Both the position numbers and the translations under genes were made by a program. The notes beneath the pieces were generated by a model, which had not been told where the DNA came from, searched no databases, and saw only the letters and a program-made list of their open reading frames with translations. From Bacteroidota bacterium (GTDB taxonomy: Bacteria > Bacteroidota > Bacteroidia > AKYH767-A > JAHEYN01): a DNA stretch of 64,000 nt. The stretch spans positions 75,433 to 139,432 of the forward strand of contig JAHEYN010000001.1 in the NCBI GenBank assembly GCA_023251555.1, given 5' to 3'. Positions 12,981 through 39,367 of the stretch are shown in pieces (position 1 is the first letter of the stretch; each line of letters starts with the position of its first letter).

Positions 12981-12994
12981 TGTTTCATTACTAT

Positions 12995-20045: not shown

Positions 20046-20050
20046 GAGAT

Positions 20051-21373
20051 TCAGTTTTTGTTCGCAGCAGGGTTGTCACGGCCTATGCTGCTGTACAAGA
20101 AGCCCATCTCTTTCATGTGGGCAGGGTCATAGAGGTTTCTTCCGTCGAAAATAACTTTCTTCCGGAGGAGTTTTTCCACTTTCTCAAAGTCAGGTGTACG
20201 GAATTCAGGCCACTCGGTGGCAATGATGAGGGCATCGGCTCCTTTCAGGGCTTCGTATTCATTTTCAGCGTATTCAATCTTATCACCGAGGATGCGTTTG
20301 ACATTGGGTATGGCTTCGGGGTCAAAGGCGGAAACGGAGGCTCCGCCGGCAAGAAGAGATCTGATGATGTGCAGGGAGGGGGCTTCCCGGATGTCATCGG
20401 TATCAGGCTTGAAAGCGAGACCCCATACAGCGATCTTTTTCCCTTTAAGGTTTCCCGAAAAAAACTTCCTGATTCTTTCCGTAAACAGTTCTTTCTGTTG
20501 CGCGTTTACTGTCATTACGGATTTCAGAATGCGGAAATCATAATGGTATTCTTCTGCAGTTTTGACGAGGGCCTGCACGTCTTTCGGGAAGCAGCTGCCT
20601 CCGTATCCGATGCCGGCAAAGAGGAATCTTTTTCCTATTCTTTCATCTGATCCGATGCCGATGCGCACTTTGTCCACGTCTGCCCCCACGCGCTCGCAGA
20701 GGTTGGCGATCTCGTTCATGAAAGAAATTTTGGCTGCGAGGAAAGAGTTGGCTGCGTATTTGGTCAGTTCTGCAGAACGTTCGTCCATGAAATAGATAGG
20801 ATTTCCCTGACGGACAAAAGGAGCATAAAGTTCATTCATCAGCTTGTTCGCTTTTTCCGAGCTGCTTCCAACGATCACCCGGTCAGGCTTCATAAAATCA
20901 TCTACTGCAAAGCCTTCCCTGAGGAATTCCGGATTTGAAACCACATCAAAAGTACACCTGGCATTTTCAGCAACAGCCTTTTTTACTTTTTCGGCGGTGC
21001 CTACGGGGACAGTGCTTTTGTTTATAATTACTTTATAGCTGTTGATTATTTTTCCGAGCTGAGTAGCGACGCCAAGTATGTAGGAAAGATCCGCAGACCC
21101 GTCTTCTCCCGGGGGGGTTGGGAGTGCGAGGAATATGACGTTTGCTTCGCTTACGGCCTCTTCGATCCTGGTGGTAAAGTGTAGCCGCCCGAGTTTGATG
21201 TTGCGTTCAAACAATCCGCTGAGATGAGGTTCATAGATAGGGATCTGCCCGCTGCGAAGCTTTGATACTTTTTCCGCATCTATATCCACGCAGGTAACAT
21301 CATTACCGGTTTCAGCAAAGCAAGTTCCTGTAACCAGTCCTACATACCCGGTGCCCACTACGGCTATTTTCAT
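20051..21373 (-). CDS. ugd: UDP-glucose 6-dehydrogenase.
   Basis: It has [21 protein letters not shown], the catalytic GGSCFPKDV block, and a length of 440 aa. Confidence 0.85.
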
Positions 21374-21375
21374 AA

Positions 21376-22521
21376 TCAGTGTGTAAAATATTTAAGGACA
21401 GAGGAAGTGATATATTCAAGGGTGTTCCCGTCCAGCTCGGTATGCATGGGGAGGGAGAGCACGGAAGAACATAAATTTTCTGTTACGGGGAAATCCCCCT
21501 GCTTATACCGTTTGTTCTGATAGGCCTTCTGAAGATGGAGGGGAACAGGGTAGTAAATCATAGAAGGGATTTCCATGGATTTCAGGTAATCCCTCAGGCC
21601 GTCGCGCCTGTTATCCTGTATTTGTAATGTATACTGGTGAAATACATGCGTTGATTGCGGATTCCGGACCGGTATTTTTATTATTTCCGGATGGCCGGAA
21701 AAGGCTTTGTCATAGCAGTCGGCGGCACGGTTTCTTGCTCCGGCGTATTCGTCGAGGTGTTTTAATTTAACCCTGAGGACGGCGGCCTGGAGGCTGTCGA
21801 GCCGGGAATTTACACCAATCTCGTCATGGTAATACTGTACAGCCTGACCATGGTTGCATATCATTTTTATTTTACCGGCGAGGCCGGCATCGCGGGTAAA
21901 AAGAGCGCCCCCGTCGCCGAAGCACCCCAGGTTTTTGGAAGGAAAAAAGGAAGTGCAGCCTATGGTTCCTATGGTTCCTGCTTTTTGTCTTTGTCCACCG
22001 GCAAAGATGTAATCTGCGCCTATAGCCTGGGCAGTGTCCTCAATGACATAAAGGTTATGGCGGCGTGCAATATTCATAATCTCTTCCATATCCGCGCATT
22101 GCCCGAAGAGATGAACGGGAACGATTGCTTTTGTATTGGGGGTAATGGCTTTTTCGATTGCCCCGGGCGAAATGGTAAAAGTGCCTGGGTTCACATCCAC
22201 AAGCACCGGTGTTAGTTTGAGCAGGGCTATCACTTCGGCAGTAGCGGCATAGGTGAAGTCAGCGGTGATTACTTCATCTCCCGGCTGCAGGCCGAGAGCC
22301 ATCATAGCCACCTGCAGGGCATCAGTGCCGTTGGCGCAGGGAATCACATGGATTCCTCCAAGGTAATACTCAAGCTCAGACTGGAAAGCCTTTACTTCGG
22401 GTCCGTTGATAAATGCGGCGGAGGCGATAACTCTGCCAAGGGCCTGATCGACCTCCGGCTTTATCTTCTCATACTGCCCTGTAAGGTCAACCATTTGTAT
22501 TTTCCGGAGCACTTTTTCCAT
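21376..22521 (-). CDS. DegT/DnrJ/EryC1/StrS-family PLP-dependent sugar aminotransferase.
   Basis: It has the DegT-type fold blocks (…GTDALQVAMMALGLQPGDEVI…, …SFFPSKNLG…) and a length of 381 aa. Confidence 0.8.
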   Translation of the reverse strand: MEKVLRKIQMVDLTGQYEKIKPEVDQALGRVIASAAFINGPEVKAFQSELEYYLGGIHVIPCANGTDALQVAMMALGLQPGDEVITADFTYAATAEVIALLKLTPVLVDVNPGTFTISPGAIEKAITPNTKAIVPVHLFGQCADMEEIMNIARRHNLYVIEDTAQAIGADYIFAGGQRQKAGTIGTIGCTSFFPSKNLGCFGDGGALFTRDAGLAGKIKMICNHGQAVQYYHDEIGVNSRLDSLQAAVLRVKLKHLDEYAGARNRAADCYDKAFSGHPEIIKIPVRNPQSTHVFHQYTLQIQDNRRDGLRDYLKSMEIPSMIYYPVPLHLQKAYQNKRYKQGDFPVTENLCSSVLSLPMHTELDGNTLEYITSSVLKYFTH

Positions 22522-22624: not shown

Positions 22625-24448
22625 TCATGAAAAAATTCTGAAAAGGGGGGAAAGCAGCTTGTTGAGCAGGTAGTCGTTTGATTTTCCGTCAATGGCGATG
22701 ACTGTTTGCCCATTCCATTCAATGGTATGCAGGTGGTGGCCGCCGGTGTTATTCCAATATTTGTTTCTCCTGAGTATATCATGCTCTGCCGGCTCTTCCC
22801 TGTATGAGAACGGAGAAATCTCCTTCACCTGCATAAGATGCAGTTTTTTGCCGTAGCTTTCCGAGCAATCCTGTACCGGCCTGAAGAGGCGGCCTTCGTG
22901 CATAAAGAGTACGCCTCCCGGCTGGGCATATTTCTTATTATCAGTAAGCGGACTGGATGGATGTTCTTTCCACCCTTCTGTCAGAGAAGGGGAGAAGAAG
23001 AGGCGAAGGTAACCACTGGAATCCATGGTGAAGAGATACCATGTTCCTTCGTGGAAAAAGGGAGAAGGATCAATGAAGTCTCCTTCAATAATACGTTTCA
23101 CAAAAGTCCATTTCAGGATGTTTCCCGATGCTTTGTATAAGCGTATGGATGCATCGTCGAGTGTTTCGGGAATCATATAGATGTCCTCTCCGTGTTTAAA
23201 TACATAAGGATAGGAGAGGTGAAAATTTTCTTCAAGGACTATCCCGTGGGAGTTCCAGCTGAGGAGATCCCGGGTGCTGTGTGCGGTTATTTTTCCTATC
23301 CCGCCGTCCATCTGCTGCTCGGAGAACATGTACAGGATCTCACCGTTTGCAAAGAGAAACGGGTCTGCAATGATGTGAGGATGTTTTTTTCCCGTCCTGA
23401 TTTTTTTTGAGGAAAACAGGGCAACGGGCTTTGTTAATGACTGCCCGGGAACATAAGATTTTTTTTGTCTGAAAACTGCTGCTGACCATATTGAGCTCCT
23501 CCTGAATTTGCTCATGAGCTTATTAAGTATTCTTGAAAGAAATGAAAACGGATAACGGAAAAGCAGTAACAGCAGTATTTCCCGGTTGAGGCCGGTTCTT
23601 CCTGCCAGTGCATCCCTGTAAAATAATTTATCATAGGTCAGGTAAAATTTTATTTTTCCTGCCATCCCGGTGAGGGGTTTGAAATCTATGCGGAAGAAAA
23701 GGCTATTGTCGTCATGCTTTGGATCACTGCCCATTGCCGAAAACAGTGCGCTGTATATGCGCGTGCTGTCCTCCTGAAATTTTGCGAGGTCTCTGACCGA
23801 CTTTGCATCATCATGCATCAGCACGCAGGCGAGGGTATCGTCAACATATTTCACACCTTCATAACCATACCTGCATATATATTTCAGCCAGGTGTACTGA
23901 TCCATCATAAAGTGAAGACTCTCATCAAGAGGCGTAAGTTCTTCGAAAATTTTTTTTCTGAAGAAAGTGGCCGGCTGCACAAAAATTTCGAGACCGAGTG
24001 CCCTGGGGATATTTGCAGGTCCGGGGGTTCTTTTCCGGTAGCGGGTTCCTTTAAAAGTCAGGTAGTTGGCATAGCCGCACACGATATTCGTTCCGGGATC
24101 TTTAAAGGCTTCTGCAAGCTTAAACAGTGCTTTATAGCCAAGCTTGTCATCGGAATTGAGCCAGTTGATGATATCGCCGGAAGCATGACTTAATCCTTTG
24201 TTGATCGCGTGGCTCTGCCCCCTGTCGGATTCGCTGATCCAGAAAGAAATATGCTGCTCATATTTCCTGATGATGTCAATGGTATTGTCGGTACTTCCTC
24301 CGTCGATAATTATAAATTCAAGATTGGGATATCCCTGCCCGATAACCGAAAGAATGGTACGCTCAATATATTTCCCCTGGTTGAAGGAGGGCGTGATGAC
24401 AGATATTTTGGGGAGAGATTCCAAAAGGGCTGTGTTATCGGGAATCAT
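22625..24448 (-). CDS. Two-domain protein with an N-terminal family-2 glycosyltransferase fused to a C-terminal beta-propeller (GH32/43-like blade) domain.
   Basis: The GT2 blocks are ISVITPSFNQGKYIERTILSV…IIIDGGSTD…NSDD. The C-terminal ~270 aa have DP…F..G…Y and SYPYVF…G.YMIPE blade-like motifs. Confidence 0.6.
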   Translation of the reverse strand: MIPDNTALLESLPKISVITPSFNQGKYIERTILSVIGQGYPNLEFIIIDGGSTDNTIDIIRKYEQHISFWISESDRGQSHAINKGLSHASGDIINWLNSDDKLGYKALFKLAEAFKDPGTNIVCGYANYLTFKGTRYRKRTPGPANIPRALGLEIFVQPATFFRKKIFEELTPLDESLHFMMDQYTWLKYICRYGYEGVKYVDDTLACVLMHDDAKSVRDLAKFQEDSTRIYSALFSAMGSDPKHDDNSLFFRIDFKPLTGMAGKIKFYLTYDKLFYRDALAGRTGLNREILLLLLFRYPFSFLSRILNKLMSKFRRSSIWSAAVFRQKKSYVPGQSLTKPVALFSSKKIRTGKKHPHIIADPFLFANGEILYMFSEQQMDGGIGKITAHSTRDLLSWNSHGIVLEENFHLSYPYVFKHGEDIYMIPETLDDASIRLYKASGNILKWTFVKRIIEGDFIDPSPFFHEGTWYLFTMDSSGYLRLFFSPSLTEGWKEHPSSPLTDNKKYAQPGGVLFMHEGRLFRPVQDCSESYGKKLHLMQVKEISPFSYREEPAEHDILRRNKYWNNTGGHHLHTIEWNGQTVIAIDGKSNDYLLNKLLSPLFRIFS

Positions 24449-25560
24449 ACCTGGTTGTTTTTTTTATTAAAAGCATAGTTGAAGGAAGCGCTGTTGACAG
24501 TGCTGTATTTTTCTTTGATGGAGAGAAAGCGTTTCTCGAAAACTTCGTATGAGATGTATGCAATAATGACAGTGGCTGCGGGTACGCCGGAATATACAAG
24601 CAGCTGTATAGAAAAAGGTGATAAGAAATTATTAAAAGAGGAGAATATTTTTGAAAGGAGGAAAAGAATTAATGGGTGGTAAACATATATCCCGAACGAA
24701 ATTTTTCCGAGGAAATCAAAAGGCCTGGTGTTAAGGTTAAGAATGCTTTTTTTATTTGATGAGACATTGATGATGAGCAGTATTGTTAATACAGCAATGA
24801 TCTCATGGTCAATTACAGAAGCGATATGAAACCGGTTGAGGGCCATAAGCGTGATTGTAACCCAGCAAACAGCCTGGGTAATAACTGAACAGGCAAGAGT
24901 TAACAGCAATTTGTTTCCCGAATGAAACAGCACGGCCCCCAATGCACCTATGGCCATACAGTCAAAACGGCTGACATGAGCAAGGAGATAGGGCTTATGA
25001 AAGTCTGTAGCAGAGTCAAGTATGCGAAACAAAAATCTTGCAATGAGAAATGCGGATATAAATAAGACGAGCGTACGCAATATGTTTTTTGACTTGCTTA
25101 CTATCCATGGCCAGAAGAGATAAAATTGCTCTTCTACTCCTAATGACCAGTAATGATCAAGGAAGGGGAGGGGGGTGTAAAAAACATAAGGAATATTGGC
25201 AGATAAAAGCAGGTAAAAAACAAGGCTTGTAGCGGAAATGTTTTTCTGATAAAGAAAAGCACAAATCAAGGCCATGAAAAAATAAAAAAAATACAATGGC
25301 CAGATTCTGAGTATGCGTCTGATATAAAAATTTTTTACATTGATATTTCCGGATTTGTTTTTTTCTATTATTAAAAGGTAGGTGATCAGGAATCCGCTGA
25401 GGGAGAAAAAGATGGTTACACCGAACCCGGCCAGGTCGAGGCTTTTCCCTTTTGGCAAACCGAAAGATTCCAGCCCCAGTTCAATATGAGAAAAGACAAC
25501 TGCGAGGGCTGCTATTGCCCGGAGCCCGTTAAGCCCGGCAAGATGTACCCGGCTGTTCAC
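24445..25560 (-). CDS. Acyltransferase family 3 (integral membrane O-acyltransferase).
   Basis: It has LNGLRAIAALAVVFSHI and about 10 hydrophobic helices over 371 aa. Confidence 0.7.
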   Translation of the reverse strand: MNSRVHLAGLNGLRAIAALAVVFSHIELGLESFGLPKGKSLDLAGFGVTIFFSLSGFLITYLLIIEKNKSGNINVKNFYIRRILRIWPLYFFYFFMALICAFLYQKNISATSLVFYLLLSANIPYVFYTPLPFLDHYWSLGVEEQFYLFWPWIVSKSKNILRTLVLFISAFLIARFLFRILDSATDFHKPYLLAHVSRFDCMAIGALGAVLFHSGNKLLLTLACSVITQAVCWVTITLMALNRFHIASVIDHEIIAVLTILLIINVSSNKKSILNLNTRPFDFLGKISFGIYVYHPLILFLLSKIFSSFNNFLSPFSIQLLVYSGVPAATVIIAYISYEVFEKRFLSIKEKYSTVNSASFNYAFNKKNNQV

Positions 25561-25632: not shown

Positions 25633-26850
25633 TTATTTTTTCAGGATAACTTCCCCATAGAGGTTTTCGTAGGCAGCATACATTGTACGTACATCGTATC
25701 TTGTTTTTACAGTCACGGATGCTTTTTCACCGGTCTTTCTTGCCTCATGTAAATTCTCAAGGCTGGCTTTAGTTATATTTATTGCTTCTTCCGGGTTATC
25801 CGGATTAAAGAGTATGCCATTCCCATCCTGTAGCTGTTCGGTGATCCCGCCTACAGATGAGCCGATAACACAGACTCCGCAGCTCATAGCAGCGAGCACT
25901 GTCAGCGGAAAATTTTCGGCCCGTGAGGAGAAAAAGAGAAAATCAATTTCATTAAACAGATTACACAGGTCGGTTTTATTATTCATATAAGCATGATACA
26001 CCGCCTTTTTCGAGTTGGGTTTTGTCCGCAGCGGAGGGCCGATTATATGCAAATCAAAATCGCCCTTTATCCGGGAAAACACAAAATCGAGAATATCGGA
26101 TCCTTTAAAGGGGCTGTCAGAATTGATTATAAGTACTCTGGGAGTTTCCCACCTTCTCCCGTGTTTATTGATGAATGCTGAACTGTCAATGCATTCATGA
26201 ATCATTTTCACGTTCATGGAGTGATCATAGACGGATGAAGCGGTTAAACATTCCCTGAGCCAGTTTGATCCGGGCACGAAAACGATATTCCGGGAGATTG
26301 ATTTGTATATCTTTTTTTTCTTTTCTATGTAGTGCTGTCTCCGGTCAATTAAAGGATTGTAAAGGGGATAGGCATAGTCATAGGGGGTTGTCCCGATTCC
26401 CTTCCGGTAGTTTTCATCGCCAAATGTAAAAGCTTCTCCTCCCGTGAGCGCCCACATGTCATGAAGTGACCATACAATGGGTTTTTCTGCAGCAATGTCA
26501 ATCAGCGCATCCAGGTCGAAGTACCCTCCATGTATGTTATGAAGGTGGATAATTCCGGCCTCCCGGTAGGCCTTCATTTCTCTCAGCTTACGCACTGTGA
26601 AATTAAACTCTTCTCCAAGAGAAAATATTTGCCGGAGAGTCTTTTTTATGCCTGCCTTCCAGAGCACTTTATCCGCTAAAGAAAGGCTTTGATCCAGCAG
26701 TGAGGAGGGGAGTTCGATGACTTTTTCAGAAGAGGTTCTTCTGGATTTCACCAGCAACCTGCAATCCATTCCGGAAAAGTGTACAAAATCGTACGAAAAT
26801 TGTTCAGCGCCCCCACCGCTATCGTAGGTATTTACATGTAAAATCTTCAT
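25633..26850 (-). CDS. Glycosyltransferase family 4 (GT-B, group 1).
   Basis: It has a C-terminal E-x7-E-type block (FFSSRAENFPLTVLAAMSCGVCVIGSSVGGITEQL). Confidence 0.7.
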   Translation of the reverse strand: MKILHVNTYDSGGGAEQFSYDFVHFSGMDCRLLVKSRRTSSEKVIELPSSLLDQSLSLADKVLWKAGIKKTLRQIFSLGEEFNFTVRKLREMKAYREAGIIHLHNIHGGYFDLDALIDIAAEKPIVWSLHDMWALTGGEAFTFGDENYRKGIGTTPYDYAYPLYNPLIDRRQHYIEKKKKIYKSISRNIVFVPGSNWLRECLTASSVYDHSMNVKMIHECIDSSAFINKHGRRWETPRVLIINSDSPFKGSDILDFVFSRIKGDFDLHIIGPPLRTKPNSKKAVYHAYMNNKTDLCNLFNEIDFLFFSSRAENFPLTVLAAMSCGVCVIGSSVGGITEQLQDGNGILFNPDNPEEAINITKASLENLHEARKTGEKASVTVKTRYDVRTMYAAYENLYGEVILKK

Positions 26851-27809
26851 TTCCCCGAATACTCTTCCAGAATTCTTTTTTGCTCTTTCACCCAGTCTCT
26901 GAATCTGTATCCATACGAATAGCGGGTCATCTGTTCTATTGCTGAGGAATCAAAAATGGTATCTCCCGATTCTGTTTCCAGGGACAGCGGCGGCCAGGGG
27001 CTATGTATCACCCTGACCCCGTAAATGCGGGCAATGGCTTTTGCGACATTTGAAATACTCAGTGTGTCGGGTCCCCCGATGTTCAGAATCCGGTTTCTCG
27101 ATTTGCCGGACAGAATGGCGCTAAGAAGTATATTTATTAAGTCTTCAATATGAATAAAAGATCTTTTTTGCAGTCCGCTGCCAAAAATTACAATGTCTTT
27201 CTTTTCCGCTGCCTGTGATAAAAAATGTCCAAGTGTCCCATACGAGGTTTTCCCGTCTATTTTATTCCCATACGGGACACAGATCCTGAAGATTGAATAA
27301 GTCATCCCGAAACAGTTATGATAAATATGAAGGATGTTTTCGCAGAAAAATTTATTCAGGGAATATATTGTCTTGAAGGCCAGTTCCCCATCCTCTCTGA
27401 CAGGAATATTCTTTTTCCCTTTGTAAACAAGTCTTGTAGACGGGAAGATGATACGGGACTTACTTTTTGTCTTTCTCATTGCAGAAAGTATATTCAGAAG
27501 TCCTTTCTCGTTTACATCAATAAAGTCGGCATATTTTTCAAATCCGGCAGTAGTTCCTGTAAGTCCCGAGAAAACAAAAGTATAGTCAGACCGGAAATTT
27601 ATTTTCTCAACGGAAGCCGGTTCTCTGATATCAACGGAGGCGTAATGTTCGTGGTGGTCAATAGAATTTTGCTGAAGATCATACAGAAAGCATTTGCACT
27701 CTAAGGCTTTTAATGTACTGACAATGTGCCTTGCAATGTAGCTGTTGGCGCCGATAACAGTGAATGACTTTCCTTTTAACTTTCTTCGGACGGAGGGCGT
27801 AAGCATCAT
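26847..27809 (-). CDS. NAD(P)-dependent epimerase/dehydratase (SDR) family protein. It is a candidate NDP-sugar 4-ketoreductase or epimerase.
   Basis: It has an N-terminal Rossmann block (FTVIGANSYIARHIV) and a YxxxK motif. It overlaps its neighbour by 4 nt. Confidence 0.6.
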   Translation of the reverse strand: MMLTPSVRRKLKGKSFTVIGANSYIARHIVSTLKALECKCFLYDLQQNSIDHHEHYASVDIREPASVEKINFRSDYTFVFSGLTGTTAGFEKYADFIDVNEKGLLNILSAMRKTKSKSRIIFPSTRLVYKGKKNIPVREDGELAFKTIYSLNKFFCENILHIYHNCFGMTYSIFRICVPYGNKIDGKTSYGTLGHFLSQAAEKKDIVIFGSGLQKRSFIHIEDLINILLSAILSGKSRNRILNIGGPDTLSISNVAKAIARIYGVRVIHSPWPPLSLETESGDTIFDSSAIEQMTRYSYGYRFRDWVKEQKRILEEYSGK

Positions 27810-27810
27810 G

Positions 27811-28788
27811 TCATTTTTTTAACACCTTCTCGTACAGGCCTGAGATGATTTTCATCCTGTTTATTATTTCTTCGCCCTGGTTGATTTTGCCTGCTTGTCC
27901 AGGTTGATTGACTTTAAGTGCAAAATCATCAAGCATGAGCTCAAACTGGTTAGCTGCTTCAATGGGAATCAGCTTCCTTTCATTTTGTTTTATGACTACA
28001 ATGTCTCCCTGTTCTTGGGGAGGTCTTGAAAAGACCCGTTCGGCGGACAGGTATCCGCTGCTGCCCCAAAGGCAATAGCTGTTCCTGTACATAAGCCCGA
28101 ACCCGTATACAATGTGAGCGGTGATATCGCCTAAGACAAGCTGAATGGCACCCCGCTCATCAATACCCATCCTGGAATTATATTGTATAGCCGGGAATAT
28201 CCCGGACGGGGTGCTGCCTGTAATATTCATGCAAAAGCTCAGGGGGTATATCAGGTTGTCGAGAATGGCACCCCCGCCCAGTTCCGGTTTATTCCTGATA
28301 TCTTCTGCCGGCGGGTAAGGGAATCCAAAATAAGCATCAATATGCCTGAGGTTGCCAATTTCATTACTGTTTACAAGGGAGTGTACTTTTTTGTAAAGAG
28401 GATGATAAATGTAGACCAGGGCTTCCATTGCGACGAGTTTTTTTGCGGCCGCCAGGTCAATTAAATGTTGTGTTGTTTTGAGGCTGTGGGTAAAAGGTTT
28501 TTCCATCAGCAGGTGCTTTCCGGCATTTAATACCTTAAGCCCCCATTCATAGTGAAGGGCTGCGGGAAGAGACACGTAAACCGCAGTTACTTCCGGGTCA
28601 TCAAGGAGGTTCTCATAGGTTCCGGGTTTGCAGGAGTATTTCCGTGAAAACTCAAGGGCCTTTTCCGGGCTTCTTGAAGCTACGCATGCAAGTTCCAGTT
28701 TTTTGCTGTTGCATATCGCAGGCAACACCAGCCTGTCTGCTATAGAGCTGCATCCCAGGACACCTATTTTTATTTTATTGTTATTCAT
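27811..28788 (-). CDS. Gfo/Idh/MocA-family oxidoreductase, possibly an NDP-hexose 3-ketoreductase acting with the adjacent 2,3-dehydratase.
   Basis: It has KIGVLGCSSIADRLVLPA…LLMEKP, the classic Gfo/Idh/MocA N-terminus. The ketoreductase role is an inference from gene context. Confidence 0.7.
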   Translation of the reverse strand: MNNNKIKIGVLGCSSIADRLVLPAICNSKKLELACVASRSPEKALEFSRKYSCKPGTYENLLDDPEVTAVYVSLPAALHYEWGLKVLNAGKHLLMEKPFTHSLKTTQHLIDLAAAKKLVAMEALVYIYHPLYKKVHSLVNSNEIGNLRHIDAYFGFPYPPAEDIRNKPELGGGAILDNLIYPLSFCMNITGSTPSGIFPAIQYNSRMGIDERGAIQLVLGDITAHIVYGFGLMYRNSYCLWGSSGYLSAERVFSRPPQEQGDIVVIKQNERKLIPIEAANQFELMLDDFALKVNQPGQAGKINQGEEIINRMKIISGLYEKVLKK

Positions 28789-30166
28789 GGTAGCTGATGC
28801 ATGAAATAAGGCTTCTCGCCTCTATATTTACGTATCCCGGCTGCATTACCAGTTGTTTTATCTGCCTGAGGGTTGCCCACATAAAGCCCGGCTGCAGAGG
28901 AATGTCATCTGTTGTTAAAACAACCATATGCAGGTTTTGGACCCTGTAAAAACGGCCTCCTTCATCTGACTGCATGGATGATATAATAATATTTTTCTTT
29001 TCCGGTGCGATAAAATACTTTGCAAACAATTCGGGTGAAGATGCGAGATATGACAATGGAATTCCCTGGATCGTCGGCCCTATCTCTGCTCCATTAATGC
29101 TGCCCGGTTCCTCTTTACCCCTTACAAGGAAATGCAGAATATCATTTATTTTTTTGGCAAGCATTCCATGAATCCGGATATGAGAATCGCAGATGACAGG
29201 CTGGGTCCAGGATCCGACTTCTCTTTCAGCCATAATGCTTAATGCGATAATTTTAAAATCCGGATCAGGACCGCAGGAAAACTCCATATCAGTCCGGTTA
29301 ATATGGGCCATGTTTTTTATAGATTTAAGCTTCGCTTTTATCTCAGAATGTGTCTTCATCTCGTCTATCCATGACTTAAAACCTGCTGCGTCTGTGTATG
29401 TCCCGTCCAGGTTTAAAGAGGAAATGAATAAGTCTTTTCCATGAGGGGAAGGAGTGTTTTTTCTGAAGGAATCATATAATAAGCCGGCGTCTTTTAACGT
29501 ATATTTTTCTTCTTCCTCACCTAACAGGATACCTGAAATAATACTGCGGGCGTTCATGTTTACCACATTATCCTCCTTAATAAATCTGAGAATTTGAGAC
29601 AGCGTCATCCACTGAAACCCGGGGAGCAGCTCAATATGTTCGCTTTCGTCGTATATACGGATAGAATTCCTGTTCTCTTTTTTGAAAAACCTGCTTGCCT
29701 GTTCAGAAAGAGGAAGGTCAAACAGGGTATTTTTATCCGACAGGAAATAATCCAGGTATGGAACAGGTTTTCCCTTATGAACCGCAGTGTAGTTGCTTTT
29801 GGTAGCTTGTACGGTGGGGGAGAGCTGAACTTCCCCGATGTTTCCGGGTTCAAATTTAAATTGCATCAGAAAGTGAAGAATGCCATTGACCTTTTTACCT
29901 AGTATTCCAAGTATTCCTGTTTCAGGTTGATTTAATATAAGCTGCTCTCTTCTGCCCGGGCCGGAGGTTTGCCCGTAGCTTAGACCCTGTACGGTAAAAA
30001 ATTTTCCCGACTCATGCACAAGATTTCCGTTAGCGTCAAAATGCCATTTCAGAAGCTTGCTAAAAGGGATGCGTATTGTTTTAGAGTGCTTTATTTCATG
30101 GGCTGTGCGGGTGGTTGAAGAATCTGAAAAAATGGAGGAAAGAATATCCACGTTGATTTTTCTCAT
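28781..30166 (-). CDS. NDP-hexose 2,3-dehydratase family protein (EvaA/TylX3-like) with two tandem homologous halves.
   Basis: Internal duplication is visible: GILGILGKKVNGILHFLMQFKFEPGNIGEVQLSPTVQATKSNY is echoed by HGMLAKKINDILHFLVRGKEEPGSINGAEIGPTIQG. Its length of about 460 aa is typical for this family. Confidence 0.55.
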   Translation of the reverse strand: MRKINVDILSSIFSDSSTTRTAHEIKHSKTIRIPFSKLLKWHFDANGNLVHESGKFFTVQGLSYGQTSGPGRREQLILNQPETGILGILGKKVNGILHFLMQFKFEPGNIGEVQLSPTVQATKSNYTAVHKGKPVPYLDYFLSDKNTLFDLPLSEQASRFFKKENRNSIRIYDESEHIELLPGFQWMTLSQILRFIKEDNVVNMNARSIISGILLGEEEEKYTLKDAGLLYDSFRKNTPSPHGKDLFISSLNLDGTYTDAAGFKSWIDEMKTHSEIKAKLKSIKNMAHINRTDMEFSCGPDPDFKIIALSIMAEREVGSWTQPVICDSHIRIHGMLAKKINDILHFLVRGKEEPGSINGAEIGPTIQGIPLSYLASSPELFAKYFIAPEKKNIIISSMQSDEGGRFYRVQNLHMVVLTTDDIPLQPGFMWATLRQIKQLVMQPGYVNIEARSLISCISYHE

Positions 30167-30184: not shown

Positions 30185-30994
30185 CTATTGTTTTGTGCGA
30201 AAGGCAAATATGTTGAACTGAAGGTCAATTCCCATGTAACTGTGAATTTCCTTAAAGGGCTGCGGAGAATGGCCAACGGGTAGTGCATGCACCCGGAACC
30301 CGGCCTTGTGAAGGACAGCCAGCAACTCATGCAGCGACTGTTCTTTTCCTTCAAAAGAATGGTATTCAATGAACAGGTGATCCACATTGATAAGCATACC
30401 GGCACAATCTTTTAAGACTGTGGTTTCTGCTCCTTCGATATCTATTTTCAGAAAATCCACTTTTTCATTTTCAAGAAAATTTCTCAGGCGTAATGTCTTT
30501 ATGAAACTGTTACCGGGTTTGTTGTCTGAAAGGGATGAAATTCTTCCTCCGTCAGCGCCTTCAGAAGTGAAATGCAGTGTTGTTTCTTCATTCCACACGC
30601 CGTAATTCATCAGCTTTACATTATCAAGTTTGAAGGAATTAACATTAGAATCAAGGGCGGCAAAGATTAAAGGGTCTGGTTCAAATGCAAGGATCTTTGC
30701 CTGCGGGTACAACCGTTTGAAGTAGATAATGCTGAGCCCTATGTTGGCTCCGCAGTCGATAATATAAGGAGCATTACTCCGCGCAGAAAAATTATAAATG
30801 CATTTCCTGAAGATTTCATGGTAAGTGAAGACAAAAGATGCCCCATCCGTAAGCGTGAGCTCATGTCCGAGTATGTTGGTTTTCAGCGTGGTGTATCTCG
30901 GCTTTCCGGAAATTCTTGATAGTTCACGGAACTCAGGGTCAAAGAGATATTTGGCCGGATTAATTAGCAGCTTACGCAGAACATTTTTCAACAT
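30185..30994 (-). CDS. FkbM-family SAM-dependent methyltransferase.
   Basis: It has IIDCGANIGLSIIYF, FEPDP and FLKIDIEGAE. Confidence 0.7.
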   Translation of the reverse strand: MLKNVLRKLLINPAKYLFDPEFRELSRISGKPRYTTLKTNILGHELTLTDGASFVFTYHEIFRKCIYNFSARSNAPYIIDCGANIGLSIIYFKRLYPQAKILAFEPDPLIFAALDSNVNSFKLDNVKLMNYGVWNEETTLHFTSEGADGGRISSLSDNKPGNSFIKTLRLRNFLENEKVDFLKIDIEGAETTVLKDCAGMLINVDHLFIEYHSFEGKEQSLHELLAVLHKAGFRVHALPVGHSPQPFKEIHSYMGIDLQFNIFAFRTKQ

Positions 30995-31025: not shown

Positions 31026-32171
31026 TCAGAAAGTCAGGAAAGATACAAATTCATTTACTCTTTTCTGAAAGGAATGTGTGCTGCATGTTTTTTTCTGTCC
31101 TTCAAGGGCAATTTTTTTTCTTTCAGATTCATGCCTGAGCAGGTAATTTACCTTCTCTATACATTCATCTATGGTTTTGTAGGTCACGACTTCTTTTCCG
31201 GGTTCGAAAAAATCACGGATGTTTTCTTTCCAGTCAGTGATAAGGCAGGTGCCTGCTCCTGTTGCTTCGACCATCCGGATATTGGCGGCATTTTTTCCTG
31301 CAGCGTCAATGTGGGAGTTAAAGGTGAGCCTGGAGTCAGCAAGTGTCTGATACATTGCCAGGCCGAACAATCCGCCATGGTTTTTTCCCTGGAGGCGGAG
31401 TACATCCCTGTACTCTTTAAACCGCAACTGCTTTAGTCTTGAAAGTTGTTCGCGTGAAAAATAATTTTTTTTCGTATCAAGCATGTTAATCCACAGCTCT
31501 ATCGGCGTTTTACGGGCAAGATTTGTGATGTCACGAAAGCGTTTATGGTGTGCATTCTGATAAAAGCTGATTGAGCCGACAAAGCTTAATTCGTGTACAG
31601 GCGGCCTTGAAATAATATGATCTAAGATGGAACTTTCAAAACCAAATTTAAAGTAATAGCCTTTATACCCTGTTGTTTTATTATAAAACTCTGCACAGTC
31701 TGATATGCATGACAGAATAATATCACTGCCTTCATATTTCTCCGGGTTATTGTATTGCAATCCATCCCATCCAAGGATGATTTTAACTGAGGGGCAATTT
31801 TTTCTTATCCTCTTTCTGAACGAAGGATTTATTATTTCATAGTCATGTGCAAAAAATATTTCAGGCTCGAACTCCATAATCTGCGCTTCAAGGATTTCTT
31901 GCTGCCATTTCTCAGGGTTGTACTTTAAATTCCGCTCTTTTGCCCACTGCTTTTGGAGTGTCCCGGCGTTGGTAATTATTTCCAAGGCTTCAAACTTTCC
32001 GGTCAGTTCCAGGTTTTTTTTCCAGAAGTTGCTCCATCCAAAGCAGTCAGACATGATTTCCTCAAGCTGAAGTGTATAGTTCTTTTTTCCGAGCTCCGGC
32101 CTGGTATTATATAAAAAACTAAGGTATTGCGGATAGAAAGAAGAAGCCTTTAAAAATTTCGTTTTCCCCAT
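31026..32171 (-). CDS. Putative glycosyltransferase of the GT1/CgeB-like type. The GT-B C-terminal half is recognisable.
   Basis: The C-terminal block RMVEATGAGTCLITD…FEPGKEVVTYKTIDECIEKVNYLL resembles group-1 GT C-termini. The N-terminal half is not assignable. Confidence 0.4.
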   Translation of the reverse strand: MGKTKFLKASSFYPQYLSFLYNTRPELGKKNYTLQLEEIMSDCFGWSNFWKKNLELTGKFEALEIITNAGTLQKQWAKERNLKYNPEKWQQEILEAQIMEFEPEIFFAHDYEIINPSFRKRIRKNCPSVKIILGWDGLQYNNPEKYEGSDIILSCISDCAEFYNKTTGYKGYYFKFGFESSILDHIISRPPVHELSFVGSISFYQNAHHKRFRDITNLARKTPIELWINMLDTKKNYFSREQLSRLKQLRFKEYRDVLRLQGKNHGGLFGLAMYQTLADSRLTFNSHIDAAGKNAANIRMVEATGAGTCLITDWKENIRDFFEPGKEVVTYKTIDECIEKVNYLLRHESERKKIALEGQKKTCSTHSFQKRVNEFVSFLTF

Positions 32172-32234: not shown

Positions 32235-33176
32235 ATGTTATCCAAAATAAAAAAAGAAATTGAGATGAACAAATGGGATACCTCATACCCATTTTTTCAC
32301 GGGAGGCTTTACCCCTTAAAAAAAACTATCTTTGCTGGTAACAATTCTGGCTATATGTTATCGCGCAAGACTGTCATTGACAGCAACAGGGCCGGCTCCC
32401 ATGTGAGTATCAGAGAACTATACCGCTACAGGGACCTCTTCATTACGCTTGCTTACCGTGATTTCAAGGTCCGCTACGCCCAGACCTTCCTTGGGTTTTT
32501 ATGGGCAATCCTCCAGCCGTTGGTAACGCTGCTTATTTTTATCGTGGTTTTCCAGAGAGCAATAAAAATAGAAACAGGTAATATTCCTTACCCGGTATAT
32601 GTCCTTGCAGGAATGACGATATGGTCCTATTTTTCTTTTGTCATGGTGCAGGCAGGGCAATCTATCATATCTGCCCAGCAGATGGTACAGAAAATATTTT
32701 TCCCCAGGCTGGTCATACCGGTTTCAAAAGCTGTAGTCGGACTGGTAGATTTTCTCATTTCACTTATGCTTCTTTTTCTGGCCATGTGGTACTATCATTA
32801 TATTCCTGCGGCACATGCCGTTTTTATTCCGCTGGTGGTCGTATTACTAATAATGTTTTCTCTTGGTATCGGCATCTGGCTTAGTGCACTGACAGTCCGC
32901 TTCCGGGACTTTCAGCATATCATTCCTTTTGTTGTCCAGATTGGACTATATGCCACCCCGGTTGCTTATCCGTCTTCAGTAATCCCGGAAAAATATCATC
33001 TTATATATTACCTGAACCCTGTGACAGGTATTGTGGACATTTTCCGGTGGAGCCTGCTGGGTACGGAAATGAACAGGTTTTATGTTTGTATTTCCATGTC
33101 TGTTGCCGTACTGATCCTCCTGACATCCTTTTGGTATTTCAGGAAAACAGAACGTGTGATGGCGGATATAGTATGA
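32235..33176 (+). CDS. wzm: ABC-2 type polysaccharide exporter permease (Wzm/TagG/KpsM-like). The start is probably an internal Met near 32355.
   Basis: It has RELYRYRDLFITLAYRDFKVRYAQTFLGFLWAILQPL (a Wzm signature) and 6 TM segments. Confidence 0.75.
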   Translation: MLSKIKKEIEMNKWDTSYPFFHGRLYPLKKTIFAGNNSGYMLSRKTVIDSNRAGSHVSIRELYRYRDLFITLAYRDFKVRYAQTFLGFLWAILQPLVTLLIFIVVFQRAIKIETGNIPYPVYVLAGMTIWSYFSFVMVQAGQSIISAQQMVQKIFFPRLVIPVSKAVVGLVDFLISLMLLFLAMWYYHYIPAAHAVFIPLVVVLLIMFSLGIGIWLSALTVRFRDFQHIIPFVVQIGLYATPVAYPSSVIPEKYHLIYYLNPVTGIVDIFRWSLLGTEMNRFYVCISMSVAVLILLTSFWYFRKTERVMADIV

Positions 33177-33183: not shown

Positions 33184-34428
33184 ATGAGCAACATTTCTTT
33201 ACAGATAGAAAATATCTCCAAGCGCTATCTTATAGGCAGGAAGGTCAGTGCTTCCCTGAGTGAGACGGCAGGGAAATTTATCAATTATTTTTCAGGTGGG
33301 AGGGATAGAAAAAGTACTTCCGTTTTCTGGGCGCTGAAAGATGTTTCTTTCTCTGTGAAAGAAGGAGAGGTTGTTGGGATTATTGGAAAAAACGGTGCAG
33401 GGAAGAGCACCCTCCTGAAGATTCTCTCGAGGATAACGGAACCCACAAAGGGTAGAATAGAAATCAACGGAAGGGTGGCTTCTCTTCTTGAGGTTGGAAC
33501 GGGATTTCATCCTGAGCTTACCGGCCGGGAAAATATTTACCTCAACGGAACCATTCTGGGAATGAGCCGCAGGGAGGTGAAAAGCAAGTTTGATGAAATA
33601 GTTGACTTCAGCGGGGTGGAGCGTTTTATCGACACCCCTGTCAAGAGGTATAGCAGCGGCATGTACGTGCGTCTTGCTTTTGCCGTTGCAGCCCACCTTG
33701 AACCTGAAATACTGCTTGTAGACGAAGTGCTTGCAGTGGGAGATGCGGAGTTTCAGAAAAAATGCCTCGGGAAAATGAATGAAGTCTCCCAAAGCGGGAG
33801 AACAATTCTATTCGTAAGCCACAACATGGGGGCCATCAGCGAACTATGCTCTAGAGCTGTTTTCCTGCAGAACGGAGGTGTAAAAATGGATGATGAGGTA
33901 AATAAGGTATTAGGGGCTTATCTGGAAGATTATGAGGATGTCGCTAATTCGGTGGAGATAACCTCCCTTCCTGACAGCATTTGCGTTTTCAATAAAGTCA
34001 TGGTTGCCGGGGAAGACGGGAAAAGCAGGTTCGAATACCTTCTCGGCGATCCTATACAGGTGCATATTTCATATGCCATCCGGGGGGATTACAAAGATTT
34101 TAATATTGAGTTTAATTTATTCAGGGGTGTTAACTGCGTTTTCACAACTTTTAATACAGACACGGGTGATCCTGTTGAATACTGGAGGAAAGGAAAATAT
34201 TCGGCTGTTGTCCAAATCCCCGGCGGATTGCTGAAAGCAGGGCATTATGTTATCAGCCTTAAGATGAGAAGAAACAGTGATGGAGCGCATTTACACGGAT
34301 TACATGAGGTGGTCGGGTTTAAAATTTCTGAGGTGAATGTGAATCTCACACACGTAGGCTACCAGCAGGACAGGGCAGGGGATATTATTTTCCCGGGTAA
34401 CTGGAATATCATCAAACAGGAAAAATAA
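33184..34428 (+). CDS. wzt: ABC transporter ATP-binding protein Wzt with a C-terminal ~170-aa extension, putatively a glycan-terminus-binding domain.
   Basis: It has Walker A GKNGAGKST, the ABC signature YSSGM, Walker B ILLVDE and a non-NBD C-terminal domain. Confidence 0.8.
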   Translation: MSNISLQIENISKRYLIGRKVSASLSETAGKFINYFSGGRDRKSTSVFWALKDVSFSVKEGEVVGIIGKNGAGKSTLLKILSRITEPTKGRIEINGRVASLLEVGTGFHPELTGRENIYLNGTILGMSRREVKSKFDEIVDFSGVERFIDTPVKRYSSGMYVRLAFAVAAHLEPEILLVDEVLAVGDAEFQKKCLGKMNEVSQSGRTILFVSHNMGAISELCSRAVFLQNGGVKMDDEVNKVLGAYLEDYEDVANSVEITSLPDSICVFNKVMVAGEDGKSRFEYLLGDPIQVHISYAIRGDYKDFNIEFNLFRGVNCVFTTFNTDTGDPVEYWRKGKYSAVVQIPGGLLKAGHYVISLKMRRNSDGAHLHGLHEVVGFKISEVNVNLTHVGYQQDRAGDIIFPGNWNIIKQEK

Positions 34429-36656: not shown

Positions 36657-36657
36657 T

Positions 36658-38166: not shown

Positions 38167-38193
38167 TGTATAAATGATTAGCGAAGGGGAAAG

Positions 38194-39364: not shown

Positions 39365-39367
39365 TGT

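What the first reader, a model, noticed from the sequence alone, without database searches (positions are those of the whole stretch)
26847..30166. NDP-hexose 2,3-dehydratase plus Gfo/Idh/MocA reductase plus SDR in a Bacteroidota surface-glycan operon: a predicted 2,6-dideoxy (or 3-amino-2,3,6-trideoxy) sugar
The 461-aa protein at 28781-30166 shows the internally duplicated architecture of EvaA/TylX3-type NDP-4-keto-6-deoxyhexose 2,3-dehydratases. Immediately downstream, with overlapping stop and start, is a Gfo/Idh/MocA oxidoreductase. This is the family that supplies the cognate NDP-hexose 3-ketoreductases (KijD10/TylC1/SpnN type) in actinomycete deoxysugar pathways. An SDR follows it, as a candidate 4-ketoreductase or epimerase. 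A DegT aminotransferase and an FkbM methyltransferase are nearby.

This enzyme combination is classically associated with antibiotic deoxysugars such as olivose, mycarose and vancosamine. It is rarely reported for cell-surface polysaccharides of Bacteroidota. No RmlA/RmlB-type nucleotidyltransferase or 4,6-dehydratase is obvious inside the window, so the substrate supply is unclear.
Basis: partly seen in the sequence, partly recalled or inferred. Interest (0 to 1): 0.6.

Follow-up and report, generated by a model that had tools for sequence, protein, structure and literature searches.

The report
Dideoxy-sugar gene cassette in glycan locus
Three adjacent genes in a Bacteroidota surface-glycan locus very probably make a dTDP-activated 2,6-dideoxy sugar; the call is sound, but the module is common outside antibiotic producers and such a sugar is already known in a Bacteroidota surface glycan.

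Summary
The 461-aa protein (28781-30166, minus strand) is an EvaA/TylX3-type NDP-hexose 2,3-dehydratase. It has a real internal duplication and both catalytic glutamates. The next gene overlaps it by 8 nt and is a Gfo/Idh/MocA protein. Its closest solved relative is the sugar C-3 ketoreductase KijD10, and the catalytic Lys and Tyr are kept. The third gene is an extended SDR. Its family recurs beside dehydratase-reductase pairs in polysaccharide loci of several phyla, so I read it as the 4-ketoreductase.

The predicted product is a dTDP-2,6-dideoxy-D-hexose. No rmlA or rmlB lies in the window, but both flank the module in related Bacteroidota loci.

In the two nearest relatives, a five-gene cassette (FkbM methyltransferase, dehydratase, 3-ketoreductase, SDR, GT4 transferase) sits beside a divergent wzm/wzt ABC exporter, as here.

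The rarity claim needs qualifying. Of the 80 best species-level genome hits, 34 are Bacteroidota. Digitoxose, a 2,6-dideoxyhexose, is a known residue of the Tannerella forsythia protein O-glycan.

Verdict: a new member of a known kind, of modest interest. Sugar stereochemistry, the methylation site and the role of a nearby WbpE-like aminotransferase remain open.

The parts
28781..30166 (-). NDP-4-keto-6-deoxyhexose 2,3-dehydratase (EvaA/TylX3 type, tandem Nudix-like halves)
   Evidence: PF03559 E=2.2e-109, two stretches. EvaA 4j7g E=2.7e-72. The halves are homologous, E=9e-26. E106 and E155 align with the EvaA catalytic residues E139 and E190.
27811..28788 (-). NDP-3,4-diketo-2,6-dideoxyhexose C-3 ketoreductase (Gfo/Idh/MocA, KijD10-like)
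   Evidence: PF01408 and PF22725. The best solved match is KijD10 3rbv, E=2.3e-44, 32.7% identity over 294 aa. The EKP lysine K97 and Y181 are conserved. The start overlaps the dehydratase stop by 8 nt. A homologue lies directly downstream of the dehydratase in 28/30 Bacteroidota, 16/17 other-phylum and 62/66 metagenome loci.
26847..27809 (-). Extended SDR, inferred NDP-4-keto-2,6-dideoxyhexose 4-ketoreductase
30185..30994 (-). FkbM-family SAM methyltransferase, inferred O-methylation of the dideoxy sugar or its glycan
   Evidence: PF05050 E=6e-20 and TIGR01444 E=5.8e-28. It is 56% identical and in the same position directly upstream of the dehydratase in L001 and L002.
25633..26850 (-). GT4 glycosyltransferase, inferred transferase for the dideoxy sugar
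   Evidence: PF13692 and PF00534. It is 52-54% identical and in the same position after the SDR in L001 and L002.
32235..33176 (+). Wzm-type ABC-2 permease, divergent from the cassette operon
   Evidence: PF01061 E=2.1e-19. Four hydrophobic segments. It is 36-38% identical and in the same divergent position in L001 and L002.
33184..34428 (+). Wzt-type ABC ATPase with a C-terminal extension (weak Wzt_C match)
   Evidence: PF00005. TagH, Wzt/RfbE-type NCBIfam matches, all below their curated cut-offs. Wzt_C E=0.004 at residues 269-382, below the gathering score, whereas the L002 homologue scores 35 bits.
31026..32171 (-). First gene of the operon, a glycosyltransferase-like protein
   Evidence: PF13524 E=2e-26. 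It is not conserved in L001 or L002, which carry an unrelated ORF of about 310 aa there.
24445..25560 (-). Acyltransferase-3 membrane protein, probably glycan O-acylation
   Evidence: PF01757 E=1.4e-31. Seven hydrophobic segments.
22625..24448 (-). GT2 glycosyltransferase fused to a GINT1_N-like domain
   Evidence: PF00535 E=5.5e-29 and PF24793 E=9.3e-48.
21376..22521 (-). DegT aminotransferase of the C-3 (WbpE/DesV/QdtB) clade; link to the dideoxy pathway unresolved
   Evidence: PF01041. WbpE 3nyu 8.8e-94, DesV 2oga 1.3e-85, QdtB 3frk 1.5e-78. Only about 30% identity to the DesI-like DegTs that follow dehydratase-Gfo pairs in other Bacteroidota. 36-40% identity to DegTs that follow more divergent Gfo genes in other phyla.
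20051..21373 (-). UDP-glucose 6-dehydrogenase
   Evidence: PF03721, PF00984 and PF03720. TIGR03026 470.9 bits, above its cut-off.
19068..20045 (-). UDP-glucuronate decarboxylase (UDP-xylose synthase)
   Evidence: Human UXS1 4gll E=4.4e-105.
18478..19071 (-). WlbB-like hexapeptide N-acetyltransferase for 3-amino sugars
   Evidence: 3mqg E=6.9e-68, then the WxcM-like protein 4mzu 4e-41 and QdtC 4.9e-17.

Best explanation
Genes 28781-30166, 27811-28788 and 26847-27809 form a translationally coupled three-enzyme module. It converts dTDP-4-keto-6-deoxy-D-glucose into a dTDP-2,6-dideoxy-D-hexose.

Step 1. The EvaA-type dehydratase removes the C-2 hydroxyl and gives dTDP-3,4-diketo-2,6-dideoxyglucose. 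The assignment rests on family membership and on the conserved catalytic glutamates.

Step 2. The KijD10-like Gfo/Idh/MocA enzyme reduces the C-3 keto group. The assignment rests on homology, on the catalytic Lys and Tyr, and on near-universal gene adjacency.

Step 3. The SDR reduces the C-4 keto group. This step is inferred from recurrent co-occurrence only.

The substrate comes from RmlA/RmlB encoded elsewhere in the genome. This is inferred, because related Bacteroidota loci carry rmlA and rmlB next to the module.

The downstream GT4 enzyme adds the sugar to a glycan, and the upstream FkbM methyltransferase O-methylates it. Both roles are inferred from a five-gene cassette conserved in the two nearest relatives. 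The glycan is assembled in the cytoplasm and exported by the divergently transcribed Wzm/Wzt ABC transporter.

No RmlC-type epimerase accompanies the module, so a D-series sugar (of the olivose, oliose, digitoxose or boivinose type) is expected. The C-3 and C-4 stereochemistry cannot be read from sequence.
For: Dehydratase:
- PF03559 at E=2.2e-109 in two stretches.
- EvaA 4j7g at E=2.7e-72.
- Internal duplication at E=9e-26.
- E106 and E155 align with EvaA E139 and E190, whose mutation abolishes activity. Both are invariant among nine subfamily members.

3-ketoreductase:
- KijD10 is the top solved match at E=2.3e-44. The next match is an uncharacterised oxidoreductase at 7.6e-36, and generic family members score 1e-18 or worse.
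- K97 and Y181 match the EKP lysine and the tyrosine that is replaced by Phe in entry 3rc7.
- The start overlaps the dehydratase stop by 8 nt.
- A homologue lies directly downstream in 28/30 Bacteroidota, 16/17 other-phylum and 62/66 metagenome loci.

SDR:
- S124, Y149 and K153 are invariant.
- Three family members chosen by name, not by context, all lie in dehydratase-Gfo-SDR modules inside polysaccharide loci. They come from Flavobacterium sp. ANB, a Clostridium MAG and a Bacteroidetes MAG.
- L042 carries rmlB-rmlA-SDR-dehydratase-Gfo and L130 carries rmlA-rmlB-dehydratase-Gfo-SDR-wzt, both in order. The SDR therefore coexists with a true RmlB (53-54% identical to the E. coli enzyme) and is not the 4,6-dehydratase.

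dTDP substrate supply:
- RmlA (60-71% identity) and RmlB (52-54%) are adjacent in several Bacteroidota loci.

Cassette and export:
- FkbM, dehydratase, Gfo, SDR and GT4 lie beside a divergent wzm/wzt pair in L001 and L002. Cassette proteins and Wzt are 47-62% identical to those of the window; Wzm is 36-38% identical.
- No Wzx- or Wzy-like polytopic ORF was found among the unassigned ORFs of the locus that were scanned.

Precedent:
- Digitoxose occurs in the T. forsythia O-glycan.

rmlA and rmlB are absent from the 64-kb window, and the rest of the genome could not be read.

A C-3-type aminotransferase and a 3-N-acetyltransferase lie in the same operon with no obvious source of a 3-keto sugar other than the dehydratase product. 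An amino-sugar branch is therefore possible.

The FkbM target and the GT4 donor specificity rest on synteny in only two relatives.
Confidence: 0.72

Rival explanations
1. The dehydratase product is also, or instead, aminated at C-3 by the WbpE-like DegT (21376-22521). It is then reduced at C-4 by the SDR and N-acetylated by the WlbB-like transferase (18478-19071). The result is a dTDP-3-acetamido-2,3,6-trideoxyhexose.
For: The DegT falls in the C-3 aminotransferase clade: WbpE 8.8e-94, DesV 1.3e-85, QdtB 1.5e-78. The acetyltransferase matches enzymes that acetylate 3-amino NDP-sugars: WlbB 6.9e-68, the WxcM-like protein 4mzu 4e-41, QdtC 4.9e-17. The window holds no WbpB/WlbA-like 3-dehydrogenase and no FdtA/QdtA isomerase, so the 3,4-diketo sugar is the only 3-keto donor encoded locally. 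DegTs 36-40% identical to this one sit next to dehydratase genes in other loci, including Streptomyces L039.
Against: A dedicated 3-ketoreductase is translationally coupled to the dehydratase. The five-gene cassette recurs in L001 and L002 with no DegT in the sequenced flanks. The DegT lies 6 kb away behind a 103-nt gap, in a sub-module with Ugd and Uxs. The strength of the WlbB match (231 bits over about 180 residues) suggests the classical UDP-GlcNAc3N(A) substrate instead. Where WbpE-like DegTs follow a dehydratase, the intervening Gfo is a more divergent type, with median identity 27% against 32-33% in the other locus classes.
Confidence: 0.15
2. The SDR is not the 4-ketoreductase. It would be a nucleotide-sugar epimerase or another redox enzyme, and the C-4 keto group would be reduced or aminated by an enzyme encoded elsewhere.
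For: The best sequence and fold matches include many 4-epimerases. No curated NCBIfam model is reached.
Against: The SDR family recurs specifically beside dehydratase-Gfo pairs, in 31 of 125 loci that have an adjacent Gfo. This includes minimal modules such as L085, where it is the only further sugar-modifying gene. A three-enzyme set of 2,3-dehydratase, 3-ketoreductase and 4-ketoreductase is exactly what the known 2,6-dideoxyhexose pathways need after RmlB. That last point is established knowledge of the olivose and digitoxose pathways.
Confidence: 0.1
3. The Gfo/Idh/MocA protein works in the oxidative direction as a WbpB/WlbA-like NDP-sugar 3-dehydrogenase. It would supply the WbpE-like aminotransferase, and its position next to the dehydratase would be incidental.
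For: Gfo/Idh/MocA 3-dehydrogenases paired with DegT aminotransferases are a known route to 3-amino sugars (WbpB/WbpE, from established knowledge). This is the only Gfo/Idh/MocA gene in the window.
Against: No chain named WlbA or WbpB appears among the 50 solved matches at E<=1e-5, whereas KijD10 scores 2.3e-44. The gene pairing with the dehydratase is conserved in about 90% of non-actinomycete loci.
Confidence: 0.03

Closest known systems
EvaA (Amycolatopsis orientalis) and the TylX3, Gra-orf27, SpnO, OleV dTDP-4-keto-6-deoxyglucose 2,3-dehydratases
   Same: Same Pfam family (PF03559) and the same two-half Nudix-like architecture. The N-terminal half is 46.6% identical to that of EvaA. Both catalytic glutamates of pocket A are conserved.
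   Different: The gene sits in a Gram-negative glycan-export locus, not in an antibiotic cluster. No aminotransferase, C-methyltransferase or epimerase set of the EvaB-E kind lies beside it. The nearest database relative is only 56% identical.
KijD10 (Actinomadura kijaniata), the C-3 ketoreductase of dTDP-L-digitoxose synthesis; also TylC1, SpnN and Gra-orf26
   Same: Gfo/Idh/MocA fold and best solved match (E=2.3e-44). The catalytic Lys and Tyr are conserved. The gene follows a 2,3-dehydratase.
   Different: Identity is only 32.7%. Whether the new hydroxyl is axial or equatorial is unknown. No companion 5-epimerase is present, so a D-sugar is expected rather than L-digitoxose.
Digitoxose in the general protein O-glycan of Tannerella forsythia (Bacteroidota)
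   Same: A 2,6-dideoxyhexose on a Bacteroidota cell surface, in a glycan that also carries Xyl, GlcA, O-methyl groups, an amidated uronic acid and a nonulosonic acid. This window likewise encodes Ugd and Uxs, methyltransferases, amidotransferases and a NeuB-like synthase.
   Different: That glycan is a protein-linked oligosaccharide. This locus uses a Wzm/Wzt exporter, which suggests a polymer. The 2018 gene-cluster paper mentions neither dTDP nor a dehydratase. I could not test whether T. forsythia carries this module.
ABC-transporter-dependent O-polysaccharide systems with a capped non-reducing end read by the Wzt C-terminal domain (E. coli O8/O9a type; from my own knowledge)
   Same: A Wzm/Wzt pair, a Wzt with a C-terminal extension that weakly matches Wzt_C, and a methyltransferase in the locus.
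   Different: No WbdD-like terminator or kinase was identified. The Wzt_C match is below the Pfam threshold. The C-terminal domain is not conserved in L001.

Membership tests
NDP-hexose 2,3-dehydratase (PF03559; EvaA/TylX3) | Significant match to the family profile above the curated cut-off | tested here: met
   364 bits against a cut-off of 25, E=2.2e-109. EvaA E=2.7e-72.
NDP-hexose 2,3-dehydratase (PF03559; EvaA/TylX3) | Two tandem homologous Nudix-like halves | tested here: met
   Two Pfam stretches. N-half against C-half gives BLASTP E=9e-26, and hhalign gives probability 100%.
NDP-hexose 2,3-dehydratase (PF03559; EvaA/TylX3) | Catalytic glutamate pair of pocket A (EvaA E139 and E190) | tested here: met
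   E106 (FEPGN) and E155 (SEQ) align with them. Both are invariant in alignment A1.
NDP-hexose 2,3-dehydratase (PF03559; EvaA/TylX3) | Dehydration of dTDP-4-keto-6-deoxyglucose to the 3,4-diketo-2,6-dideoxy sugar | not testable with these tools
   Needs an enzyme assay.
KijD10-type NDP-hexose C-3 ketoreductase (Gfo/Idh/MocA) | Gfo/Idh/MocA N- and C-terminal domains | tested here: met
   PF01408 E=2.8e-21 and PF22725 E=2e-13.
KijD10-type NDP-hexose C-3 ketoreductase (Gfo/Idh/MocA) | Closer to KijD10 than to other characterised Gfo/Idh/MocA enzymes | tested here: met
   KijD10 155 bits. Glucose-fructose oxidoreductase, inositol dehydrogenases and similar enzymes score 70 bits or less. No chain named WlbA or WbpB is listed.
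KijD10-type NDP-hexose C-3 ketoreductase (Gfo/Idh/MocA) | Catalytic Lys (EKP motif) and Tyr | tested here: met
   K97 and Y181 align with the KijD10 lysine and with the tyrosine that is Phe in mutant entry 3rc7.
KijD10-type NDP-hexose C-3 ketoreductase (Gfo/Idh/MocA) | Genetic coupling to a 2,3-dehydratase | tested here: met
   8-nt overlap. Adjacent in 28/30, 16/17 and 62/66 loci.
KijD10-type NDP-hexose C-3 ketoreductase (Gfo/Idh/MocA) | Stereochemistry of the C-3 hydroxyl produced | not testable with these tools
   I know of no sequence determinant. It needs product NMR.
NDP-4-keto-2,6-dideoxyhexose 4-ketoreductase (extended SDR) | Rossmann motif and Ser/Thr-Tyr-Lys triad, with no dehydratase acid/base dyad | tested here: met
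   GANSYIA motif, S124, Y149xxxK153, and S-T-R instead of T-D-E.
NDP-4-keto-2,6-dideoxyhexose 4-ketoreductase (extended SDR) | Specific similarity to a characterised 4-ketoreductase | tested here: inconclusive
NDP-4-keto-2,6-dideoxyhexose 4-ketoreductase (extended SDR) | Co-occurrence with the dehydratase and 3-ketoreductase as the only extra redox enzyme | tested here: met
   L001, L002, L084-L087, L130 and L042. Found in 31 of 125 loci.
ABC-transporter-dependent (Wzm/Wzt) glycan assembly | ABC-2 permease plus ATPase in the locus, and no Wzx/Wzy | tested here: met
   PF01061 and PF00005. No other polytopic protein except the AT3 acyltransferase.
ABC-transporter-dependent (Wzm/Wzt) glycan assembly | Wzt C-terminal carbohydrate-binding domain | tested here: inconclusive
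   Wzt_C E=0.004, 17.6 bits against a cut-off of 30.4. The L002 homologue reaches 35 bits.
dTDP-sugar pathway (RmlA/RmlB supply) | Glucose-1-phosphate thymidylyltransferase and dTDP-glucose 4,6-dehydratase available | tested here: not met
   Absent from the window. Present next to the module in related Bacteroidota loci. The rest of the source genome could not be read.

The most novel reading that the evidence does not exclude
The conserved cassette (FkbM, dehydratase, 3-ketoreductase, SDR, GT4) that abuts wzm/wzt makes an O-methylated 2,6-dideoxyhexose. This sugar is added once, as the chain-terminating non-reducing-end cap of an ABC-exported polysaccharide, and the C-terminal domain of Wzt reads it as the export signal.

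A corollary follows from carbohydrate chemistry. 2-Deoxyglycosidic bonds are very acid-labile, so such residues would be lost in routine acid hydrolysis or mild-acid LPS work-up. That could explain why a gene module this common in Bacteroidota has so few chemical reports.
Probability: 0.15. Interest if true: 0.55.

Novelty: new member of a known kind. Interest (0 to 1): 0.33.

Why it matters
The finding assigns a specific, testable gene set to 2,6-dideoxyhexose synthesis in a Bacteroidota surface glycan. Such a sugar is chemically documented in this phylum (digitoxose in Tannerella forsythia). The papers I could read name no genes for it.

It also shows that the dehydratase-3-ketoreductase pair is not mainly an antibiotic-pathway feature. 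It is a widespread building block of polysaccharide loci in Bacteroidota and many other phyla. In my locus classification it comes with an SDR, with a DegT that is DesI-like where tested, or with a WbpE-like aminotransferase.

For glycan chemists, it flags acid-labile 2-deoxy residues that standard composition analysis may miss. Beyond that, it is a routine annotation.

Tried and rejected
- Literature searches for 2,3-dehydratases or 2,6-dideoxy sugars in O-antigens and capsules gave nothing relevant. Commas cannot be searched, and a space does not stand in for them. The Tannerella digitoxose precedent came from a search on 'dideoxyhexose' with 'Bacteroidetes'.
- A metagenome scan with the single protein found no relative. 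The scan with the alignment found only one near relative, L087 at 47%.
- The source genome could not be read: no DNA was returned for the 476-kb contig. The presence of rmlA/rmlB elsewhere stays untested.
- I tested whether the SDR could be the missing 4,6-dehydratase and rejected it. It lacks the T-D-E dyad, and it coexists with a true RmlB in L042 and L130.
- I tested whether any of the three DegTs in the window is an orthologue of the DegT that follows dehydratase-Gfo pairs in Bacteroides, Alistipes and Flavobacterium loci. None is: identity is about 30%, and the one such DegT tested (L025) is DesI-like.
- I tested whether the Wzt C-terminal domain co-varies with the cassette. Support is only partial: the domain is conserved with L002 but not with L001.
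- I considered a secondary-metabolite reading and rejected it. The window has glycosyltransferases, Wzm/Wzt and an O-acyltransferase, and no PKS or NRPS.

Full report

Yes. Three ORFs occupy 28781-30166 (461 aa), 27811-28788 (325 aa) and 26847-27809 (320 aa) on the minus strand.

The 461-aa protein matches PF03559 (NDP-hexose 2,3-dehydratase) at E=2.2e-109 in two stretches. Its only solved relative is EvaA (4j7g, E=2.7e-72), and both halves align.

The N-terminal half against the C-terminal half gives BLASTP E=9e-26 with 33% identity over 159 residues. A profile-profile comparison of the two halves of nine subfamily members gives probability 100% and E=1.4e-40.

The Gfo start codon overlaps the dehydratase stop by 8 nt. 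One base separates the Gfo stop from the SDR start. The SDR and the next gene overlap by 4 nt. The three genes are therefore translationally coupled.

**2. What the three proteins are**

*Dehydratase.* A review reports that mutating EvaA E139 or E190 in the N-terminal pocket abolishes activity, and that the second pocket is a remnant of the duplication (PMC8987622). In the alignment these residues correspond to E106 (FEPGN) and E155 (SEQ) of the window protein. I checked the motifs. Both residues are invariant in the subfamily alignment.

*Gfo/Idh/MocA protein.* Its best solved match is the sugar 3-ketoreductase KijD10 (3rbv, E=2.3e-44, 32.7% identity over 294 residues). Next comes an uncharacterised oxidoreductase (4had, 7.6e-36). 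Glucose-fructose oxidoreductase, inositol dehydrogenases and other generic members score 1e-18 or worse. No chain named WlbA or WbpB appears at E<=1e-5. The lysine of the EKP motif (K97) is conserved. So is the tyrosine (Y181) that is replaced by Phe in the KijD10 mutant entry 3rc7.

**3. Evidence from related loci**

The exact proteins exist in public data as singletons on a 476,781-bp contig. The nearest dehydratase homologue is only 56% identical.

The two nearest relatives with long contigs are L001 (52%) and L002 (47%). Both carry the same arrangement as the window: wzt and wzm on one strand, and divergently a variable first gene followed by FkbM, dehydratase, Gfo, SDR and GT4. Identities to the window proteins are 47-62% for the cassette and Wzt, and 36-38% for Wzm.

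I classified the best 80 by record title:

| Group | Loci among best 80 | Loci with enough downstream sequence | Gfo directly downstream |
|---|---|---|---|
| Bacteroidota | 34 | 30 | 28 |
| Other phyla | 18 | 17 | 16 |
| Actinomycetota | 28 | 28 | 10 |

The Bacteroidota include Bacteroides intestinalis, Alistipes, Flavobacterium, Flaviramulus, Autumnicola and Flaviaesturariibacter. One of the other loci is archaeal. An independent metagenome sample gave a directly downstream Gfo in 62 of 66 loci.

I picked three members of the SDR family by organism name, without regard to context: Flavobacterium sp. ANB, a Clostridium MAG and a Bacteroidetes MAG. All three lie in dehydratase-Gfo-SDR modules inside polysaccharide loci.

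L042 (Flaviramulus multivorans) has rmlB-rmlA-SDR-dehydratase-Gfo in that order. L130 has rmlA-rmlB-dehydratase-Gfo-SDR-wzt in that order. Each is the complete known route from glucose-1-phosphate to a dTDP-2,6-dideoxyhexose.

This supports three points:
- the sugar is dTDP-activated;
- the SDR is the 4-ketoreductase;
- the missing rmlA/rmlB in this window are simply encoded elsewhere.

The last point could not be checked, because the source genome was not readable.

**4. Variants of the module**

I classified 125 loci that have an adjacent Gfo gene:

| What accompanies the dehydratase-Gfo pair | Loci |
|---|---|
| The SDR family within 6 kb (the type in this window) | 31 |
| A DegT directly after Gfo, under 35% identical to the window DegT | 38 |
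| A WbpE-like DegT directly after Gfo | 11 |
| Unclear, or the contig ends | 45 |

- In the second class, the one example I tested (L025, Bacteroides intestinalis) is DesI-like. This predicts a 4-amino-2,4,6-trideoxyhexose.
- In the third class, the Gfo is more divergent, with a median identity of 27% to the window Gfo.

**5. The rest of the operon**

Downstream of GT4 lie an AT3 O-acyltransferase and a GT2-GINT1_N fusion. After a 103-nt gap come four more genes:
- a DegT of the C-3 aminotransferase clade (WbpE 8.8e-94, DesV, QdtB);
- UDP-glucose dehydrogenase;
- UDP-glucuronate decarboxylase (UXS1, 4.4e-105);
- a WlbB-like 3-N-acetyltransferase (6.9e-68).

The window has no WbpB/WlbA-type 3-dehydrogenase and no 3,4-ketoisomerase. 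The source of a 3-keto sugar for this DegT is therefore unexplained.

Either that enzyme is encoded elsewhere, or the DegT uses the dehydratase's 3,4-diketo product. I rate it at about 0.15, for three reasons:
- the 3-ketoreductase is coupled to the dehydratase;
- the cassette recurs without a DegT;
- the WlbB match is strong enough to suggest the classical substrate.

**6. Export and the cap idea**

Wzm and Wzt are present. Among the ORFs scanned for hydrophobic segments, only Wzm and the AT3 protein are polytopic, so no Wzx- or Wzy-like protein was found. This points to ABC-transporter-dependent assembly.

Wzt has a C-terminal extension with a sub-threshold Wzt_C match (E=0.004). Its L002 homologue passes the Pfam threshold. 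In characterised systems this domain reads a terminal cap on the polymer; that statement rests on my own knowledge.

The cassette could therefore make a methylated dideoxy cap. The support is weak. The C-terminal domain is not shared with L001, and the same module also occurs in loci that encode a Polysacc_synt (Wzx-family) protein.

**7. Comparison with what is known, and novelty**

The enzymology is that of the actinomycete olivose, digitoxose and mycarose pathways. The review still describes 2,3-dehydratases mainly in antibiotic pathways.

However, a 2,6-dideoxyhexose is already documented on a Bacteroidota surface. Digitoxose is β-(1→2)-linked to the reducing-end galactose of the Tannerella forsythia protein O-glycan (PMC4030854, PMC8550257, PMC5420450, PMC6120980). 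The 2018 gene-cluster paper mentions neither dTDP nor a dehydratase. The genes for that sugar therefore seem unassigned in what I could read.

The family is small but widespread: 1,466 clusters at 50% identity among 1.84 billion representatives.

The organism is a Bacteroidota, shown by its T9SS sorting domains. It has no close named relative, since its PurB is at most 71% identical to any named protein.

**Verdict.** It is a new member of a known kind, of modest interest.

Noticed in passing
window 18478-22521 (minus strand): A sub-module holds a WbpE-like C-3 aminotransferase, UDP-glucose dehydrogenase, UDP-xylose synthase and a WlbB-like 3-N-acetyltransferase. The window has no 3-dehydrogenase and no 3,4-ketoisomerase, so the origin of the 3-keto sugar acceptor is unexplained.
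   Followed up: partly
window 35370-49323 (minus strand): A second glycan cluster converges on the wzm/wzt side. It holds two DegT aminotransferases, two SDRs, WbqC, a NeuB-like nonulosonic-acid synthase (below the equivalog cut-offs), an AsnB-like amidotransferase, a WbuX N-acetyl-sugar amidotransferase (343.8 bits, above its cut-off), two methyltransferases and two ORFs with no family. Together with the dideoxy sugar and Xyl/GlcA, the predicted sugar set resembles the composition of the Tannerella forsythia O-glycan.
   Followed up: partly
window 22625-24448 (minus strand): A 607-aa fusion joins a GT2 glycosyltransferase to a domain matching the N-terminus of eukaryotic glucosamine inositolphosphorylceramide transferase 1 (PF24793, E=9.3e-48), with a weak GH43-like signal.
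   Followed up: no
window 34438-35232 (plus strand): A PhyH-like (phytanoyl-CoA dioxygenase family) protein lies directly after wzt. It is not present at that position in L001 or L002.
   Followed up: no
window 7628-14731: A low-GC stretch (29-39%) holds three tandem paralogous proteins of about 324 aa with T9SS C-terminal sorting domains. It also holds an IS element with an rve integrase (11150-12157), a LanC-like protein and an S41 peptidase.
   Followed up: no
L001 3695-4924; L130; L042: Three related loci stand out. L001 also encodes a sugar C-methyltransferase-type protein (PF08421/PF08484), which suggests a branched deoxysugar. L130 and L042 carry the complete gene set from rmlA/rmlB through the dehydratase, Gfo and SDR in a row.
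   Followed up: partly
L004, L010, L016; L071, L156, L051, L006, L009: Two alternative gene orders occur around the dehydratase. In the first three loci, which are Bacteroidota, a DegT lies between the dehydratase and Gfo. In the other five, from other phyla, a WbpE-like DegT follows a more divergent Gfo (24-28% identity). The chemistry of the second type is unclear, because a 3-ketoreductase and a C-3 aminotransferase would compete for the same keto group.
   Followed up: partly
proteins P0398 (936 aa), P0407 (736 aa), P0391 (678 aa), P0417, P0429; L015: Some dehydratase homologues are much longer than 460 aa, so they are probably fused to other domains. One homologue lies in a Candidatus Aenigmatarchaeota archaeon MAG (L015).
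   Followed up: no
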